This document shows positions 29,409 through 63,787 of a DNA stretch of 64,000 nt, piece by piece (position 1 is the first letter of the stretch; the number at the start of each line of letters is the position of its first letter). Origin of the DNA: a virus (lineage: Duplodnaviria; Caudoviricetes); the IMG/VR virus record IMGVR_UViG_3300014204_000124, positions 1 to 64,000 of that record; one strand, 5' to 3'. The translations under genes and the position numbers were made by a program. The notes under the pieces were generated by a model. That model did no database searches and was not told where the DNA came from. It was given only the letters and a program-made list of their open reading frames with translations.

Positions 29409-29440
29409 TTGACTTCGGATTTACTTCGATTATGCTGTAA
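29409..29440 (+). promoter_or_regulatory. Promoter family copy with leader hairpin and TGACAGC
   Basis: TTGAC-N17-TATGCTGTAA; GTCGGG..CCCGGC hairpin, TGACAGC at 29465. Confidence 0.85.
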
Positions 29441-32072: not shown

Positions 32073-32398
32073 TGAACCAGTTAGACAGGCTGAGGTTATT
32101 GGTGGAAGCCAGTCAGCGGGGGGTTGCTCCTCGTACTGGGGAAGGCAAGGATATTCCGTCGTGGCGTCAGACGCTGAACAACGCACTGACTTATTCGTTT
32201 GTGAACACGAATGTTTATCTCATTGTTGACGTTTTCAAGGACGGCGAGAAGGATACGACTGTGTCCGGCAGTGCGTCTAGGCTTTCCAGTTGGCTGGCCG
32301 ATTTCCAGAAAACGAGTGGTGATGCTCGGGTCTCGGTTGAGATCAAGGCATTTTCTACGGATCGCAATTGGTCCAGGTCTAAGGCTGACGAGGTGTAA
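32072..32398 (+). CDS. Leader-tagged putative capsid-internal protein
   Basis: MNQLDRLRLLVEA leader; SD GGAGG. Confidence 0.65.
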   Translation: MNQLDRLRLLVEASQRGVAPRTGEGKDIPSWRQTLNNALTYSFVNTNVYLIVDVFKDGEKDTTVSGSASRLSSWLADFQKTSGDARVSVEIKAFSTDRNWSRSKADEV

Positions 32399-32403
32399 CT
32401 CGG

Positions 32404-33087
32404 ATGATCCGTTACGGGAACAGGGCCAGGAAGGTGTCAGACGGGACGTTGACGCATTGGTCTAGCGTTGGCGGGTATGACCCTTCGATGGCCCAGCATC
32501 CGGCTGCACTGAACCCGGCACTCTATACGGACTTTGCTGCGTGTGCGTTCTTTGTCGATAACGTATGCGGGTGGGACGACCTAGTCTTTCCTGCTGTTGG
32601 GGTGAATCTGATTGGGCCTGCGGTTGACCCAACGGCAAACTTGACCTATATGACGCTGGATTTTACTGATGCTAAGGACTGCGTTGTTCATGTAACGTAT
32701 CAAATGCCGCATAGTTGGAAGGTTGGTTCAAATGTCAACTTCCATATCCATTGGCAACCGTCGAATACGGACGTTGGAAGTTGCAACTGGGAGGTTCGGT
32801 ATCAGTGGCGGAACGCTACAGGAGACGTTGCTTCGGCGGCGGTCTCGGCTTGGGCTCTTGTGCCGAAGGCCGTGACGCCTGGGGGTGTGGCGAGAGTAGC
32901 GCAAATGGATACCCTTGCCAGCTTCATCGGAACTGGTAAAGGGGTGTCTTCTCTGCTACAGATAGAATTGCGAAGGCTCGGGACGACAGACGCTTTCACT
33001 GGAGATGCAATGCTGGTTTCGCTGGACTTGCACTATCAGATTGACACCGCTGGTTCTGTTACCGAGAGTAGCAAATATGGGTTATAG
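32404..33087 (+). CDS. Beta-rich putative virion protein
   Basis: WDDL.FP ... QMPHSWK.GS....HIHW ... LDLHY.ID..GS pattern seen in phage structural proteins. Confidence 0.5.
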   Translation: MIRYGNRARKVSDGTLTHWSSVGGYDPSMAQHPAALNPALYTDFAACAFFVDNVCGWDDLVFPAVGVNLIGPAVDPTANLTYMTLDFTDAKDCVVHVTYQMPHSWKVGSNVNFHIHWQPSNTDVGSCNWEVRYQWRNATGDVASAAVSAWALVPKAVTPGGVARVAQMDTLASFIGTGKGVSSLLQIELRRLGTTDAFTGDAMLVSLDLHYQIDTAGSVTESSKYGL

Positions 33088-33137
33088 GTTCAGCATGGCG
33101 GGCCTGGGTTGGCCCTTGAGGATATACGAGGTGTAGT

Positions 33138-34475
33138 GTGGACGTTGTTGATCGATTCCGAATGGTGGTAGAGAGCAAGGCTATTGGGGCCGACAAGTCG
33201 GAAGAGATGGTTCGACGAGGTCTGAACACGTTTTCTGGGATGTACGATATTGCGTTGGAACAGTGGTTCTTGCGGGTGAACCGGCGGGAAGATGGGAAGG
33301 CTCGGAGTAGTCTGTTGCCGGGGAAAGCTAAGAAGGCATTGGCGAAGGTTTCGGCGTCTGTGAAGGCTTCGGTGAAGCCAGGGATGAGTGTGAAGCGGTG
33401 CTGGGGATTGTGGAAGGCAGCGGCGGCGGAAGCGTTTAGCGGGGAAGAGTACAAGAGTTTGTATGATAGCAAATGGGGTGAGTTGAAGCGAGCCAACGCC
33501 CAGTTGGACGCGTATTTTCGAGCCGCCAGTGACGGCGCAACGGAGGGTCTTATGAGAGATTTAGATAGGTTGAGAATGATTCTGGAAGCGGCTGACAAGA
33601 GTGTGACGAGGGTGAGGATATTGGCTCAGGCGCAGTCGGTCGAGGTCTGGGATAAGGACCGTCTTGTCATGGATTCCGAGAAGACCGATTTCCCGTTTGA
33701 GCCGAACTGGAAGGATTTACCAGGACTTGTAAAGCGTTGCCAGAAGGCATGGCCGAAGGCGAAAGTGGAGTTGAACGAATCGTTCGAATCTGACACGTTG
33801 AACCAACTTTTGGATATGGAAGTCGAACCTTCCCTGACAGAAGAGGGTGTCTCTGCGGACGGTTCTGCGATGATCGTCTTGAAGCTGGATTCTGAGTGGA
33901 AGAAGACGCAGAAGGCGTTGGTGGTAGTTGTCACGAAGGGGTTGGCAGCGGTGAATGCTTGGGCGAAGCAGCAGGGGCTGAAGTTCAAGAAGGCAGCGAA
34001 TCTGTTTGGCGGGGAGTACGTTGACGGGGAAGGCAACTTCTATGTGGCGTACCCTAAAATGCTGAAGGATGGTGCGGCTGAAGGCGGGCGTGTTGCTTGG
34101 GCTGAAGATGAGGACCGTGAGCCTGCGAATCTGGACGAAGCATCTGTGCCGCAGAAGTCGGAGGAAGCGTTCATTGCACCTATGGCGAAGGTAACGGGGA
34201 CGAAGTTCAAGTTGGGCCGAACGGTGATGACTGCCGGGGTCAATGCTGAGATTCAGGATACACCGGCTCTGGGTGGCTGGGTGGCTCAGTGTTTGCAGCG
34301 GCACGCCAAGGGCGACTGGGGCGACATTGACAAGGAAGACGAGGGTGAGAACGACAAGGCGTTGCAGAGCGGCGGGCGGCTCTTCTCCGTCTACAAGAAG
34401 GGGCGTGTAAAGATCTGGATTATCACAGAGGCAGATCGTAGTTCGACGACGGTGCTATTCCCGGATGAATACTAG
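33138..34475 (+). CDS. Multi-module leader-tagged protein with a second in-frame leader/start at 33552
   Basis: MDVVDRFRMVVES; internal SD GGAGGG plus ATG giving MRDLDRLRMILEA; C-terminal RH..GDWGD...WIITEADRSSTTVLFPDEY domain. Confidence 0.75.
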   Translation: MDVVDRFRMVVESKAIGADKSEEMVRRGLNTFSGMYDIALEQWFLRVNRREDGKARSSLLPGKAKKALAKVSASVKASVKPGMSVKRCWGLWKAAAAEAFSGEEYKSLYDSKWGELKRANAQLDAYFRAASDGATEGLMRDLDRLRMILEAADKSVTRVRILAQAQSVEVWDKDRLVMDSEKTDFPFEPNWKDLPGLVKRCQKAWPKAKVELNESFESDTLNQLLDMEVEPSLTEEGVSADGSAMIVLKLDSEWKKTQKALVVVVTKGLAAVNAWAKQQGLKFKKAANLFGGEYVDGEGNFYVAYPKMLKDGAAEGGRVAWAEDEDREPANLDEASVPQKSEEAFIAPMAKVTGTKFKLGRTVMTAGVNAEIQDTPALGGWVAQCLQRHAKGDWGDIDKEDEGENDKALQSGGRLFSVYKKGRVKIWIITEADRSSTTVLFPDEY

Positions 34476-34483
34476 GGGGTGCC

Positions 34484-36718
34484 ATGAAAGCGATTGACCG
34501 GCTTGTGCGGGTGTTAGGGGAAGCGTTCGCAGACAGGGCAGAAGAGAGGGCTATGGTCTCTAATTTTGAGTCTGCGTTAAAGGCGTGGGTGAAGTCTTCC
34601 CCGAAAGAGTGGGGAGCGCGTGTTTCTGTACTAACGCCCATTATGAAGCGGTACGCTGGCACAGAGTTCCCGTTCTTGGTGATATTCGACGGGATATCTA
34701 GCGAAGGTCGCCCTGTCTCGTTCAAGTTGACGTATATCACAGCGGAGACGGCGGGGGGGTCTGGCGACGGTGGTATGGAGGTTGCTGCCCAGCATGGTGT
34801 TCCTGTGTGGAAGGGCCGTCGTTTCGACCGTTTATTTGTAGGTGACTTCAAGACTATCTGGCCCGAGTGGCTTGCGCATTGGGACGTTCGGATAAAGGCC
34901 GATATTGAGTCTGGGATTGAGGGAGGGAAGTTTGTTCTTGAGTCTTCCGATGACGAGTCGAATCTGACTGAGGCGGCGATAACAGGGGACAGTCTGTATG
35001 GCCCTGGGAAGGCTGCAAGCAAGTTCGTGAGGAAGCTGGATGTAACAGAGGCGGTGTTTCAACTGACCAAGTATTCTCTGCTGAATCCAGGTGTGATCAC
35101 GCTTGGCGGGAAGGCGGCGAAGGCAGTGTTTCGGGTGTCTGGCTACATTTTGATTGGTTTACCAGGGCGGGTGACGTTTTCAGCGGATTTTGACGATGTA
35201 GCGGTTCAAGTTGATATGGTGCTGGACGGGGAGAAGGCTACGGCGAAGGGTGCCACGGTTGCTTCTGGGATAGACTACGGGGACGCTATTGACGCTGAGG
35301 ATCTCATTGAGAAGCATCTTACGGATGGTGATGCTCTGAAGTTCTACGCCGATTTTTTTGATGATATTCAGGCGAAAGAGGTAGCCAAGGCAAGGGACGC
35401 TGAGGCTGCGAAGCATCCCGCACCTAAGTTTCGGGTTGGTGACAGAGTCTGGTTGCTCGACGACAAGTCTCGGGCTAGGGCTATGAAGTCGAAGGGGCTG
35501 TTCCGTATCGCGAAGTATCTGGGGATTAACACCGACATCCGGGGGGATGCTCACCAATATGAGATTGCTCTTCCTGGAGGAGTGCCGACAGCCGAGTACA
35601 CTAAGCGTTACGAAGGAGAACTTCGTGCTGCGACGTATGCGGAGATGAAGGCGTTTGAGAAGTTGAAGAAGGCGGTGAAGGAGGAGTTTGGAGAAGCGTC
35701 GGCAATGGACGTGACGGTGGTCACTCCTGACAACGAGTTGTCCGATTCGGAGTTGGCTGCCAGGATCAAGTCTTACGGCATCGACAGAAGGGCTGCATGG
35801 AGTCAGTTTGTCATAGCGAGGTCTTTGTCTCCACGTATGGATGCGAAGGACTTCATGGCTATTTTCGATGGAGTTTCGGCAAACCCTCACAAGAAGACGG
35901 TTCGGGTGGATTTCGAGCCTACGCATAGGTCAAAAGACAATCAGGGGCTGACGTGTATGGTGACCCAGCGTCTTCCCCAGCAGGTCCGCTATGTCTTGAG
36001 TCACGGGGGAACAGGGGCAGACCCAGTGTCTATGTTTGAAAAGGGGTGGATACCCATTGGTAAGTCTGAGTCCGTTTCCGAATCAGCGCCCAGTCCGAAA
36101 GCTGAGTGTTTCGAGGTGATGGGGAAGTTGTGGGCAGCGGTATTGAAGAAGACAGGTGCGGAGAAGGTTGCCGAGAAACTGAGCGGGGATGGTGCGAAGC
36201 CGTTCCAGGTCAACCTCGTGTTCATGGTTTCGGATCTGGCTGCCGACGTTCGCAATGCACCTATCGGACGGGGCATTCGCCAGTTCGGGCGTGGTCCTGG
36301 AGGGAGGCTCGGGATTGATCCGCCCGAATTGAGTCTGGAGGCTGCGAAGTGGTGGTATGACCAGACGGATGCGGTGCAATACACGATGACACGGGCGATT
36401 CTTGCGGAGTTTGCCAAATCCAAGGGAATCACCTATGACAAGAAGAAGATGATTGAGAGCGAGGACGAGTCTGAGCGGATGTTGATTGTCACCGATCTCG
36501 ACAGTCTGTATGCGAAGGCTCTGGCTGTGGACCGTCCGAAGAATTCCAATGTTCTGGAGACGGTTCGGCAGTTCTTGAAGCGTGTGCCTGGGTCTAAGCA
36601 ATATGAGTCCAGTGCGACGGGGGGGGAGGCTCCTACGGAAGCCGAGTTGACCTCTTGGGTTGGTGTTTTGAAGCGTTTTTTCTCTGACAACGGAGTGGAC
36701 TGCGGCTGCGAAGGCTAA
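34484..36718 (+). CDS. 744-aa multi-module leader-tagged protein
   Basis: MKAIDRLVRVLGEA leader; modules separated by acidic LxE|S/A linkers. Confidence 0.75.
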   Translation: MKAIDRLVRVLGEAFADRAEERAMVSNFESALKAWVKSSPKEWGARVSVLTPIMKRYAGTEFPFLVIFDGISSEGRPVSFKLTYITAETAGGSGDGGMEVAAQHGVPVWKGRRFDRLFVGDFKTIWPEWLAHWDVRIKADIESGIEGGKFVLESSDDESNLTEAAITGDSLYGPGKAASKFVRKLDVTEAVFQLTKYSLLNPGVITLGGKAAKAVFRVSGYILIGLPGRVTFSADFDDVAVQVDMVLDGEKATAKGATVASGIDYGDAIDAEDLIEKHLTDGDALKFYADFFDDIQAKEVAKARDAEAAKHPAPKFRVGDRVWLLDDKSRARAMKSKGLFRIAKYLGINTDIRGDAHQYEIALPGGVPTAEYTKRYEGELRAATYAEMKAFEKLKKAVKEEFGEASAMDVTVVTPDNELSDSELAARIKSYGIDRRAAWSQFVIARSLSPRMDAKDFMAIFDGVSANPHKKTVRVDFEPTHRSKDNQGLTCMVTQRLPQQVRYVLSHGGTGADPVSMFEKGWIPIGKSESVSESAPSPKAECFEVMGKLWAAVLKKTGAEKVAEKLSGDGAKPFQVNLVFMVSDLAADVRNAPIGRGIRQFGRGPGGRLGIDPPELSLEAAKWWYDQTDAVQYTMTRAILAEFAKSKGITYDKKKMIESEDESERMLIVTDLDSLYAKALAVDRPKNSNVLETVRQFLKRVPGSKQYESSATGGEAPTEAELTSWVGVLKRFFSDNGVDCGCEG

Positions 36719-36725
36719 TTTATGC

Positions 36726-36753
36726 TTGACTACTCTCACGGTTCGATTATGCT
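36726..36753 (+). promoter_or_regulatory. Promoter family copy (divergent downstream of -10)
   Basis: TTGAC-N17-TATGCT. Confidence 0.75.
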
Positions 36754-63205: not shown

Positions 63206-63787
63206 ATGGACGTTATCGATAGATTGAAGTCGTTGGTTGAGTCTGCCCAAGTCGATGTACCCGCTGCGCAGGGAAATACGTTTGGGGAGTCTGCTGGATG
63301 CGACGATACGGCGGATGCCATTGGTGGGGCAGAGCACTATCGGGTGACGTGTCCAGTGTGCGGGGGTGTGACGCAGTGCCGGTGCAATTATGCGCAGCAC
63401 GAGGGCGTTGAGGTATTCGAGGCTTCGGTGGTCTGCGAACGATGCAAGGCCAGCGTTGGGGAGTCGGTCGATGGGGCGCAATCGGTTGCAACTGAGATTT
63501 TGCGACAGCTTGGAGGCCAGAAACTCAGGGCAATGCTTGGCATGAAGGGTTATTTGGTGGTGGATGCTTCGGAAGGGTTCAGTGGCGGTGTGGACTTCAA
63601 GTTTCCTAACAAGACCAAGACGGCTCCGAACAGGGTGGAGATTCTGTTGGCAGACGACGACACCTATACGGTGCGGTTCTACCGGGATTCGAGGAAGTTG
63701 AAAGAACACGACGGGATTTACGCAGACGGTCTCATAGATGTATTCGAGTCAGAGACGGGGCTGTATCTGGCGCTTTCGAGGAGGTAA
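63206..63787 (+). CDS. Leader-tagged two-module protein
   Basis: MDVIDRLKSLVES leader; Zn-finger module; C-terminal EILRQLGG...DTY.V.F...FE..TGLYL domain. Confidence 0.7.
   Translation: MDVIDRLKSLVESAQVDVPAAQGNTFGESAGCDDTADAIGGAEHYRVTCPVCGGVTQCRCNYAQHEGVEVFEASVVCERCKASVGESVDGAQSVATEILRQLGGQKLRAMLGMKGYLVVDASEGFSGGVDFKFPNKTKTAPNRVEILLADDDTYTVRFYRDSRKLKEHDGIYADGLIDVFESETGLYLALSRR

What the first reader, a model, noticed from the sequence alone, without database searches (positions are those of the whole stretch)
33138..34475. Two tagged genes fused in frame, with a second SD, ATG and leader inside the ORF
Seen: GGAGGG (33542) and ATG (33552) begin MRDLDRLRMILE|A in frame with the upstream MDVVDRFRMVVE|S protein, with no stop between them. 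Further linkers VELNE|SFES, SLTE|E and NLDE|AS divide the rest into modules of roughly 60-110 aa. Inference: a snapshot of how cargo polyproteins are built. Losing a stop codon is harmless because the downstream tag is itself a protease site, so two isoforms may be made and both processed.
Basis: partly seen in the sequence, partly recalled or inferred. Interest (0 to 1): 0.75.

Follow-up and report, generated by a model that had tools for sequence, protein, structure and literature searches.

The report
Phage cargo gene, second internal tag
One gene of an uncultured T4-like phage strings several small protein modules together and carries the phage's short 'load me into the head, then clip me off' tag twice, once at its start and once inside with its own ribosome-binding site; its only two known relatives keep this layout, so it looks like a stable design for delivering several proteins from one gene, not a fresh accident.

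Summary
ORF 33138-34475 (445 codons, GTG start) has no stop codon. GGAGGG (33542) and ATG (33552) open a second, in-frame copy of a 12-residue leader that heads about 12 otherwise unrelated ORFs of this 129.6-kb phage.

A leave-one-out matrix ranks the internal copy first among 170,552 untrained positions, and it is the only internal copy in the genome. The phage has a T4-type head: a Gp23-like capsid protein, a Gp20-like portal and a gp21-family (S77) protease. The leader ends in hydrophobic-x-Glu, so a T4-like capsid-targeting, protease-clipped tag is the best reading. This is inferred, not shown.

The "snapshot of stop loss" reading is only partly right. Both known relatives (about 65% identical) keep tag 2 in frame with CGGAGG and ATG, so the junction is old, and a sequencing error is excluded. 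A separate-gene form does exist, but the split lies about 85 codons downstream. There the relative L007 has another module, a stop and a third tag, and the window keeps only that tag's clipping half (LTE|E).

The other proposed cut sites are no more frequent than chance. The last 90 residues are a widespread mobile-element domain of unknown function.

The scan has met T4-like leaders and cargo polyproteins before on other DNA.

The parts
33128..33133 (+). Shine-Dalgarno GAGGTG for the full-length product. It is followed by a TAG (33134-33136) that is the upstream gene's stop in the relatives.
   Evidence: Read. The same GAGGTGTAG + [GT]TG arrangement occurs in L006 and L007.
33138..33173 (+). 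Tag 1 (residues 1-12, (M)DVVDRFRMVVE|S), with a GTG start codon. It is the putative capsid-targeting and clipped leader.
   Evidence: It matches the genome's leader family. Residues 2-8 are conserved in L006 and L007, which start with TTG, and codon 9 is not ATG in L007, so the start is the GTG/TTG. The model predicts a helix at 3-14 with low confidence.
33174..33551 (+). Module A (residues 13-138). It is basic (pI 9.7) and predicted to be a helical bundle.
   Evidence: Charge. Helices at 22-47, 62-78, 85-99 and 103-131, pLDDT 60-85. It is 63-65% identical in L006 and L007 and was found nowhere else.
33542..33547 (+). Internal Shine-Dalgarno GGAGGG, 4 nt upstream of ATG 33552.
   Evidence: Read. 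CGGAGG + 5 nt + ATG is conserved in L006 and L007 while the flanking codons differ. Only 8 of 772 internal in-frame ATGs have such an SD.
33552..33587 (+). Tag 2 (residues 139-150, MRDLDRLRMILE|A). It is an in-frame internal copy of the leader, a putative second start and a protease site.
   Evidence: Leave-one-out score of 24.7 bits, rank 1 of the untrained positions, and the only internal copy in the genome. It is conserved in frame in both relatives. It is not a recent DNA copy of another tag: at most 27 of 42 nt are identical.
33588..33779 (+). Module B (residues 151-214), ending in LNE214|S. It is absent from L006 and L007.
   Evidence: Alignments. Residues 155-190 are predicted disordered and 191-215 helical, with low confidence.
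33780..33842 (+). Acidic linker (residues 215-235: SFESDTLNQLLDMEVEPSLTE|E). It contains the joint between L007 gene-1-like and L007 gene-2-like sequence, at about 33822-33835.
   Evidence: The DNA alignment shows that the window follows the L007 gene-1 linker up to TATGGAAGTCGA, and follows the L007 gene-2 start from CC..GA[AG]GA[AG]GGTGT onward.
33843..34139 (+). Module C (residues 236-334), ending in LDE334|A. It is an alpha/beta module.
   Evidence: It is 84% identical to P0005, which is L007 gene 2 and carries it twice (C and C'). The L-x-E-A site is conserved there as LGE|A. Residues 307-355 are predicted disordered.
34203..34472 (+). C-terminal 90-residue domain (residues 356-445; GDWG...IWIITEADRSxTTVLFPxEY). 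It belongs to a widespread mobile-element family with no name.
   Evidence: 5,679 cluster representatives match at E<=0.001, most of them stand-alone proteins of about 95 aa. Pfam, NCBIfam, PHROGs and the PDB sequence search gave no hit. The model has pLDDT 94.5. The only fold resemblance is a weak one to RelE/ParE, Z 5.7. It occurs on 173 plasmids, between a ParB-family gene and the relaxase in the two examined, and in integrase/transposase islands.

Best explanation
ORF 33138-34475 is a capsid-cargo polyprotein gene of an uncultured myophage with a T4-type head. Its layout is tag 1, basic module A, tag 2, module B, an acidic linker, module C, and a mobile-element domain.

The 12-residue leader (M-x-x-[LIV]-[DE]-R-[LF]-R-h-h-h-E|[AS]) most likely works like T4's capsid-targeting sequence. 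It would dock the protein into the assembling prohead core, and the phage's gp21-family protease would then clip it after the Glu.

The internal copy, tag 2, is an old and maintained feature. It most likely does two jobs. First, its strong SD and ATG give a second, shorter tagged product of about 34 kDa that lacks module A. The full-length product of about 49 kDa starts at a weak GTG (TTG in the relatives). Second, within the full-length chain it is the protease site that frees module A from the rest.

Further cuts at LDE334|A and near LTE235|E would release module C and the C-terminal domain. That domain is probably delivered into the host with the DNA.

Shown: the sequence anatomy, its non-randomness, its conservation in relatives, and the protease family. 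Inferred: packaging, cleavage, use of both starts, and injection.
For: - The ORF is open, and the SD, ATG and tag 2 are in frame.
- The leader family heads about 12 unrelated ORFs. All copies are on the + strand and all begin at a start codon. Similarity between these proteins ends after the tag.
- Tag 2 ranks first of 170,552 untrained positions and is the only internal copy in the genome.
- An SD upstream of an internal ATG is rare: 8 of 772.
- The tags are conserved as peptide and not as DNA, with at most 28 of 42 nt identical between any two.
- The head module is T4-type. Gp23 Pfam hit 5.9e-60, Portal_T4 5e-42, Peptidase_S77 5e-11, above the curated cut-off.
- The protease aligns to T4 gp21 (5JBL). 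Its GEVDHP, GVSSRG and DAVEDP motifs fall in the aligned core.
- The capsid protein has LTE76|D ten residues before the start of the Gp23 model, and the protease ORF itself starts with MKVDPKAQLLIE|T.
- Both relatives keep tag1-A-tag2 in frame, with CGGAGG-N5-ATG and weak TTG first starts.
- Logan's independent assembly of the source run is identical over 32900-34700 at depth 12.
- mRNA folding around 33552 (-11.6 kcal/mol) resembles that of real starts (mean -11.6) rather than internal ATGs (mean -14.1).
- T4 precedents: the 10-residue CTS, packaging of passengers fused behind IPIII, and an internal start in gene 21 (PMC9026906).
- T4-type and giant-phage prohead proteases cut after Glu (PMC5694885).
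Against: - There are no protein or RNA data of any kind. Packaging, cleavage and internal initiation are inferences.
- L006 and L007 are nearly identical to each other around tag 2. Conservation of CGGAGG + ATG therefore rests on about one independent comparison. At about 64% local identity, nine conserved bases have a chance probability of about 0.02, ignoring coding constraints.
- The mRNA-structure value is only at the 27th percentile of internal ATGs, which is not discriminating.
- The motif count for the extra cut sites is not above chance.
- ITE431|A lies inside the folded conserved domain, so the motif alone cannot define cutting.
- The full-length model is poor outside module A and the last domain (mean pLDDT 61.7).
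- The operon is bracketed by sigma-70-like promoter matches, not by a recognised late promoter type.
Confidence: 0.55

Rival explanations
1. Long-propeptide model. Only the full-length chain is made. Tag 1 + module A + tag 2 form a 150-residue N-terminal propeptide or core-binding piece, cut at Glu12 and Glu150 as in giant-phage ejection proteins. The SD and ATG at tag 2 are relics or coincidental and are not used for initiation.
For: SPN3US gp53 and gp54 have a conserved 15-residue N-terminus with a cut site at residue 12, plus propeptides of 124-125 residues that are cut again (PMC5694885 and PMC10052503). The A + tag 2 unit is conserved in front of different downstream modules: B-C-domain in the window and D in L007. 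Module A is a basic helical bundle.
Against: An internal cut site needs no Met, yet all three loci keep ATG and CGGAGG at the right spacing. Every other copy of the leader in the genome is a true N-terminus. A strong SD + ATG in an accessible stretch would be expected to initiate in bacteria. This last point rests on established knowledge and was not tested here.
Confidence: 0.25
2. The leader is not a capsid-targeting tag. It could instead be a recognition sequence for another phage machine, such as a modifying enzyme, a chaperone or an export route. The tandem tags would then reflect that system.
For: Elsewhere in this scan a shared phage N-terminal leader proved more likely to be a radical-SAM recognition tag than a capsid signal (note e1-127136). 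Nothing here measures packaging.
Against: The genome record has no radical-SAM gene. The leader has the length of a T4 CTS, is predicted helical, and ends in hydrophobic-x-Glu followed by a small residue. That matches the cutting rule of the protease family the phage encodes. The capsid protein and the protease show the same motif at the expected places.
Confidence: 0.1
3. Recent accidental stop-codon loss. Two neighbouring tagged genes have just been fused in this one genome, neutrally.
For: Tag 2 retains every feature of a gene start. Gene junctions in this genome are tight, with the stop codon sitting between SD and start, so a single point change could fuse two genes.
Against: The same in-frame junction occurs in two relatives that differ at about 25% of aligned DNA columns (mean column identity 75%) and at about 35% of residues. 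No relative with a stop at this place was found in 1.84 billion representatives, 5.8 billion clusters, IMG/VR or JGI contigs.
Confidence: 0.07
4. Assembly or sequencing error hides a stop between module A and tag 2.
For: The record is a metagenome assembly.
Against: An independent assembly of the source run is identical with no indels at depth 12. Two other assemblies from other samples have the same open junction.
Confidence: 0.01

Closest known systems
Phage T4 internal proteins IPI, IPII, IPIII and Alt, with their capsid-targeting sequence (CTS), processed by the gp21 prohead protease
   Same: Both use a short N-terminal leader (10 residues in T4, 12 here) shared by otherwise unrelated proteins. 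The leader ends in hydrophobic-x-Glu. Both phages encode a gp21-family S77 protease, a Gp23-like capsid protein and a Gp20-like portal. The cargo sets differ between relatives (PMC9026906, PMC3012670).
   Different: The leader sequence is unrelated to T4's MKTYQEFIAE (T4 sequence from my own knowledge). The head proteins are only about 30% identical to any cultured phage. Here a complete second leader with its own SD and ATG sits in frame inside the gene, which I do not know to be described for T4 IP genes. No packaging or cleavage has been measured.
Engineered T4 IPIII fusion vectors (Hong and Black 1993; Mullaney and Black 1996, as reviewed in PMC9026906)
   Same: A tagged internal protein carries a passenger fused behind it into the head, and the protease processes the fusion. 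This is the laboratory analogue of tag1-A followed by further modules.
   Different: Those fusions are man-made. This one is natural, conserved, and has a second full tag at the junction.
Long multi-cut propeptides of giant-phage ejection proteins (SPN3US gp53 and gp54, phiKZ gp93)
   Same: Both have a conserved short N-terminus with a cut site at about residue 12, a piece of about 110-125 residues, and then a second cut that frees the mature protein (PMC5694885, PMC10052503).
   Different: In those proteins the second cut site is not a repeat of the N-terminal leader and has no internal start signal. The protease motif there is A/S-x-E.
In-frame nested head-assembly genes (T4 gene 21 giving gp21 and gp21s; lambda C/Nu3, the latter from my own knowledge)
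   Same: An internal SD and start codon in the same frame give a shorter product that shares the C-terminal part (PMC9026906).
   Different: Here both products would carry their own copy of the targeting leader, and the gene encodes cargo rather than protease or scaffold. Production of two products is not shown.
Small accessory genes near the transfer origin of conjugative plasmids (leading-region anti-defence genes; from my own knowledge, Samuel et al. 2024)
   Same: In the two plasmids examined, the C-terminal 90-residue domain is a stand-alone ORF lying between a large ParB-family gene and the relaxase or MobC. In bacterial chromosomes it lies in integrase/transposase islands.
   Different: No function is known for this domain. 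The RefSeq name 'type I restriction endonuclease subunit M' for a 90-residue protein is not backed by any Pfam or NCBIfam model. Here it is the last module of a tagged phage polyprotein.

Membership tests
T4-type capsid-targeting sequence (CTS) cargo | A short leader of 10-20 residues at the extreme N-terminus, shared by otherwise unrelated proteins of one phage | tested here: met
   About 12 ORFs carry it. BLASTP similarity between them is confined to the first 14-30 residues.
T4-type capsid-targeting sequence (CTS) cargo | The leader ends in the cutting motif of the phage's own prohead protease (hydrophobic-x-Glu) | tested here: met
   The tags end in VVE|S, ILE|A, LVE|A, LLE|S, LGE|A and similar. 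The capsid protein has LTE76|D just before the Gp23 core.
T4-type capsid-targeting sequence (CTS) cargo | The phage encodes a gp21-family (Peptidase S77) prohead protease and a T4-type head | tested here: met
   Pfam S77 at 42.9 bits against a cut-off of 27, plus Gp23 and Portal_T4 hits. phmmer to 5JBL gives 8.7e-08.
T4-type capsid-targeting sequence (CTS) cargo | The proteins are found in the head, with the leader removed | not testable with these tools
T4-type capsid-targeting sequence (CTS) cargo | Sequence homology of the leader to the T-even CTS | not tested
From memory the two leaders are not alike. The claim made here is 'works like', not 'is homologous to'.
In-frame nested gene (two starts, one frame) | An internal start codon with a Shine-Dalgarno at functional spacing, in the same frame | tested here: met
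   GGAGGG at 33542-33547, a 4-nt gap, then ATG at 33552. It is conserved in L006 and L007 and rare among internal ATGs.
In-frame nested gene (two starts, one frame) | Both products are made | not testable with these tools
   No RNA run is listed, and there are no ribosome profiling or protein data.
Protease-cut polyprotein | Cut-site motifs lie between independently folding modules, more often than chance | tested here: inconclusive
   Five of the six [LIVM]xE motifs lie at tag ends or in low-confidence or disordered stretches. LDE334 is in a disordered linker and is conserved in P0005. However, the counts are not above the shuffle expectation, and the model is poor outside module A and the last domain.
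RelE/ParE-superfamily fold (for the C-terminal domain) | A clear structural match over the whole domain | tested here: inconclusive
   VIA-align gives Z 5.7, rmsd 3.6 and 74 aligned residues to RelE, with several RelE, YoeB, HigB and ParE rows on top. This is below the level at which a common arrangement can be excluded. Foldseek against the PDB found nothing at E<=0.001.

The most novel reading that the evidence does not exclude
The internal tag is a working second address label and second start. From one gene the phage would make two separately targeted cargo chains in set proportions: a weak GTG/TTG start for the chain with basic module A, and a strong ATG for the acidic effector chain. The clip-off tag would double as the inter-module joint.

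Tags would then be the standard connectors by which this lineage swaps, fuses and splits cargo modules. Module B in the window versus module D in L007, and tag 3 whole in L007 versus half-deleted here, would be examples.

The last module, a domain otherwise found next to plasmid transfer origins, would be an injected anti-defence protein.
Probability: 0.3. Interest if true: 0.6.

Novelty: new variant of a known kind. Interest (0 to 1): 0.45.

Why it matters
T4's capsid-targeting sequence is the classic way a phage loads proteins into its head for delivery with the DNA. How such cargo sets grow and reshuffle is known mostly from T-even phages.

This locus gives a natural, conserved example in a very distant T4-type lineage. 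A whole second tag, with start signals, sits inside a cargo gene. A relative shows the same chain split at another tag.

If both starts and both cuts are real, tags serve at once as address, cut site and gene-fusion joint. That would be a simple rule for building cargo polyproteins, and a design hint for multi-protein packaging in phage vectors.

The locus also points to a very common, unnamed 90-residue mobile-element domain as a candidate first-entry (anti-defence) protein. This domain could be tested easily on plasmids in laboratory strains.

Tried and rejected
- **Family libraries.** PHROGs and Pfam on nine ORFs of the block, and NCBIfam on the last domain, gave no family. One search was a wasted test call.
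- **Searches for more relatives all came back empty.** The ORF, the module A alignment, the 329-aa neighbour and the protease were run against IMG/VR. The module A alignment was run against JGI metagenome contigs. The module A profile against 5.8 billion clusters gave only P0006. The module C region gave only the window's own protein and P0005. The polarity of the gene-1/gene-2 joint (fusion here or split in L007) therefore stays open.
- **Module D.** L007's module D has no match in this genome.
- **Sequencing runs.** No RNA holder is listed. Contigs of the groundwater runs X2 and X3 are identical where they lie, but none covers 33495-33845, so they say nothing about tag 2.
- **Promoters.** No promoter-like site lies inside the ORF. 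This is a consensus scan only.
- **mRNA structure.** Folding at 33552 is not discriminating.
- **Motif enrichment.** The extra cut sites are not significantly enriched.
- **Module A.** The ESM Atlas gave no usable hit, and the Atlas model has low confidence.
- **C-terminal domain.** The PDB sequence search gave only chance-level rows. Foldseek against the PDB found nothing at E<=0.001. BFVD gave only unnamed viral proteins. A paper search for the GDWG motif found nothing relevant.
- **Radical-SAM idea.** A radical-SAM partner for the leader was considered and rejected, because no such gene is in the record.
Full report
**Setting.** The window is bases 1-64000 of a 129,634-bp IMG/VR virus record with terminal repeats. 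All genes lie on the + strand and GC skew is strong.

Outside the window the record carries a T4-type head and a contractile tail:
- a Gp20-like portal interrupted by an intein with an HNH nuclease;
- a Peptidase_S77 (gp21-family) protease fused to a long coiled-coil region;
- a Gp23-like major capsid protein;
- a tail sheath and tube.

The protease domain aligns to T4 gp21 (PDB 5JBL, 8.7e-08). The capsid protein is at most 31% identical to any deposited phage. This is therefore a deep, uncultured branch of the T4-like head lineage. The runs that hold it are landfill and groundwater metagenomes.

**The observation.** ORF 33138-34475 (GTG start, 445 codons) is open throughout. GGAGGG lies at 33542-33547 and ATG at 33552. 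That ATG is codon 139 of the same frame and begins MRDLDRLRMILE|A. The ORF itself begins (M)DVVDRFRMVVE|S.

The same 12-residue pattern heads ORFs at 184, 31083, 32072 and 63206. Outside the window it heads ORFs at genome coordinates 64196 and 66549. Looser versions occur at 34484 in the window and at genome coordinates 64602, 65542 and 66026. All copies are on the + strand and all begin at a start codon.

BLASTP similarity among these proteins stops after the leader. The leaders differ in codon choice, with at most 28 of 42 nt identical between any two, so it is the peptide that is conserved and not a recent DNA repeat.

In a leave-one-out test the internal copy scores 24.7 bits, the best of 170,552 positions not used for training. 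Without the Met column it still ranks first. No other internal copy exists in the genome. Only 8 of 772 internal in-frame ATGs have GGAGG 4-10 nt upstream, and some of those are probably true starts.

The observation therefore stands. Tag 2 has every mark of a gene start and lies in frame inside a longer gene.

**Is it an error or a fresh accident?** Neither. Logan's independent assembly of the source run is identical across 32900-34700 at depth 12, with no indels.

An exhaustive HMMER search of 1.84 billion representatives found only two relatives outside the C-terminal domain. Their contigs are L006 (940 bp, ENA) and L007 (6,048 bp, JGI). Both contigs are syntenic with the window: homologues of the window's 109-aa gene (and, on L007, of the 329-aa gene as well) precede the locus.

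In both relatives:
- the gene starts with TTG, preceded by GAGGTGTAG;
- it encodes tag 1 and module A at 63-65% identity;
- it runs without a stop into MR[DE]VDRLRRLIE|SA, preceded by CGGAGG-N5-ATG.

The junction is therefore older than the divergence of these phages and has been kept.

One caveat applies. L006 and L007 are nearly identical to each other here. Conservation of the nine SD and ATG bases thus rests on roughly one independent comparison, with a chance probability of about 0.02 at the local 64% identity. That is my own estimate and ignores coding constraints.

**What the relatives add.** Downstream of tag 2 the three loci differ.

In L007, tag 2 is followed directly by an acidic stretch (S-T-E-S-L-D-S-D-T-L-S-Q-L-V-D-M-D-I-E). 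After that come an unrelated region of about 230 residues (module D) and a stop. A separate gene (P0005) follows. It begins MDSIERMKSALAGKNEPVEE|G, a longer and looser tag 3. It carries module C twice, then the C-terminal domain.

In the window, a 64-residue module B sits between tag 2 and the same acidic stretch. That stretch then runs straight into EPSLTEE|GVS and module C.

The DNA alignment places the switch from gene-1-like to gene-2-like sequence at about 33822-33835. The window therefore lacks module D, the stop, the SD and the targeting half of tag 3. It keeps only the clipping half of tag 3. Module D has no match anywhere in the window's genome.

No outgroup was found, so I cannot say whether the window is the fused state or L007 the split one.

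**Anatomy of the protein.**

| Piece | Residues | Notes |
|---|---|---|
| Tag 1 | 1-12 | leader |
| Module A | 13-138 | pI 9.7; four predicted helices, pLDDT 60-85 |
| Tag 2 | 139-150 | predicted helix, low confidence |
| Module B | 151-214 | partly disordered in the model |
| Acidic linker | 215-235 | contains the joint with L007 |
| Module C | 236-334 | alpha/beta, low confidence |
| Disordered stretch | 335-355 | predicted disordered |
| C-terminal domain | 356-445 | pLDDT 98 |

From tag 2 onward (residues 139-445) the protein is acidic (pI 5.0).

The ORF has six [LIVM]-x-E motifs, at Glu12, 150, 214, 235, 334 and 431. Five sit at tag ends or in low-confidence or disordered stretches. The sixth lies inside the nearly invariant IITEADR core of the last domain. 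LDE334|A is conserved as LGE|A in P0005.

The counts, however, are not above the shuffle expectation: 6 against 8.3, and 5 against 2.1 with a small residue after the Glu, two of the five being the tags. The further linkers are therefore plausible but unproven.

**How it most likely works.** The leader has the length and position of T4's capsid-targeting sequence and ends the same way. In T4 the first 10 residues of IPIII suffice for head incorporation. Residues 4 and 7 matter for targeting, and residues 8 and 10 (hydrophobic and Glu) matter for cutting by gp21 (PMC9026906). T4-type and giant-phage prohead proteases all cut after Glu (PMC5694885).

This phage's own capsid protein has LTE76|D ten residues before the Gp23 core. 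Its 76-residue N-terminal piece carries five such motifs. The protease ORF begins MKVDPKAQLLIE|T, and its coiled-coil tail has 22 motifs in 365 residues. All of this fits a T4-like maturation scheme.

Passengers fused behind T4 IPIII are packaged and processed. A chain such as tag1-A-tag2-B-C-domain would therefore be expected to enter the prohead by tag 1 and be cut at the tags.

Every copy of the leader elsewhere in the genome is a true N-terminus. Tag 2 keeps its Met and a strong SD at the right spacing in all three loci. The full-length start is a weak GTG or TTG in all three loci, whereas all 11 other tags in this genome use ATG. For these reasons I think the internal start is used as well.

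That would give a shorter, separately tagged chain without basic module A, and probably more of it than of the full-length chain. T4 gene 21 itself has such an internal start.

This two-job reading gets 0.55. The main rival holds that A + tag 2 is simply a long, twice-cut propeptide like those of SPN3US gp53 and gp54, with no internal initiation. It gets 0.25.

**The last module.** Residues 356-445 belong to a very large family: 5,679 representatives at E<=0.001 and more than 3,480 clusters of stand-alone proteins of 90-100 residues. The family has no Pfam, NCBIfam, PHROG or PDB-sequence match.

The fold is modelled with confidence (pLDDT 94.5). It resembles RelE/ParE-type toxins only weakly (Z 5.7; nothing by Foldseek).

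The domain occurs in phages and on 173 plasmids, 79 of them conjugative. RefSeq calls it 'type I restriction endonuclease subunit M' without model support. In the two plasmids examined it lies between a large ParB-family gene and the relaxase or MobC. In bacterial chromosomes it lies in integrase/transposase islands.

That placement is typical of genes that act first on entry into a new cell, which I say from my own knowledge of plasmid leading regions. An injected anti-defence role is therefore a reasonable guess, and no more than that.

**Comparison and novelty.** The system works like T4's CTS and internal-protein system. It meets every membership feature that could be tested here except homology of the leader itself. 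Packaging and cleavage are untestable with these tools.

Earlier notes of this scan report T4-like leaders and protease-jointed cargo polyproteins in several other uncultured T4-like phages. The general kind is therefore not new.

What is particular here is a complete second leader, with start signals, kept in frame inside a cargo gene across relatives. Added to that is a relative that shows the same chain split at another tag. I class it as a new variant of a known kind, of moderate interest. It is a tidy natural counterpart of the T4 fusion-packaging vectors and a concrete, testable case of how cargo polyproteins are joined. It rests on three metagenomic loci and has no experimental support.

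Noticed in passing
window 32404-33087 (flanks 32388-32397 and 33126-33135): A 227-aa untagged gene sits between the 109-aa tagged gene and this ORF. It is absent from L006 and L007, where those two genes abut. The 10-bp string ACGAGGTGTA (SD plus the start of the stop codon) occurs at both edges, so this looks like an inserted gene cassette. Its only phage match is a hypothetical protein of a Rhodobacteraceae phage (29% identity, 4e-6).
   Followed up: partly
genome G000 100075-102837 (outside the window; L004:4075-6837): The T4-like portal gene is interrupted by an intein splicing domain with an HNH endonuclease (Pfam Intein_splicing 1.1e-11, HNH_3 1.5e-11).
   Followed up: no
genome G000 104646-106343 (L004:8646-10343): The S77 protease ORF is 565 aa long, with a protease domain followed by about 365 residues of coiled coil. 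That tail has 22 [LIVM]xE motifs, so it looks like a protease fused to a scaffold-like region. From its second Met the N-terminus reads MKVDPKAQLLIE|T. That is 12 residues ending like the cargo tags.
   Followed up: partly
window 63206 onward and genome 64196-66827: A second bank of six tagged small ORFs starts at 63206, 64196, 64602, 65542, 66026 and 66549, just upstream of a large helicase gene.
   Followed up: partly
window 33138; L007:3097; L006:359: Tag 1 of this gene uses GTG (TTG in both relatives). All 11 other tagged ORFs of the genome start with ATG.
   Followed up: partly
L007:4316-5308 (P0005): The relative's separate gene carries module C twice (C and a diverged C'), inserted before the C-terminal domain. 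A groundwater contig shows the same 355-nt extra piece.
   Followed up: partly
window 29409-29436 and 36726-36753: Two identical promoter-like sites (TTGACT, 16 nt, TATGCT) bracket the block 29.4-36.7 kb that holds the tagged genes. No such site lies inside it except weaker matches.
   Followed up: no
plasmids NZ_CP114199.1 37460-37795 and CP076121.1 49965-50213: The stand-alone form of the C-terminal domain is annotated 'type I restriction endonuclease subunit M', although it is only 82-111 aa long and matches no Pfam or NCBIfam model. This is probably a propagated misnomer.
   Followed up: partly
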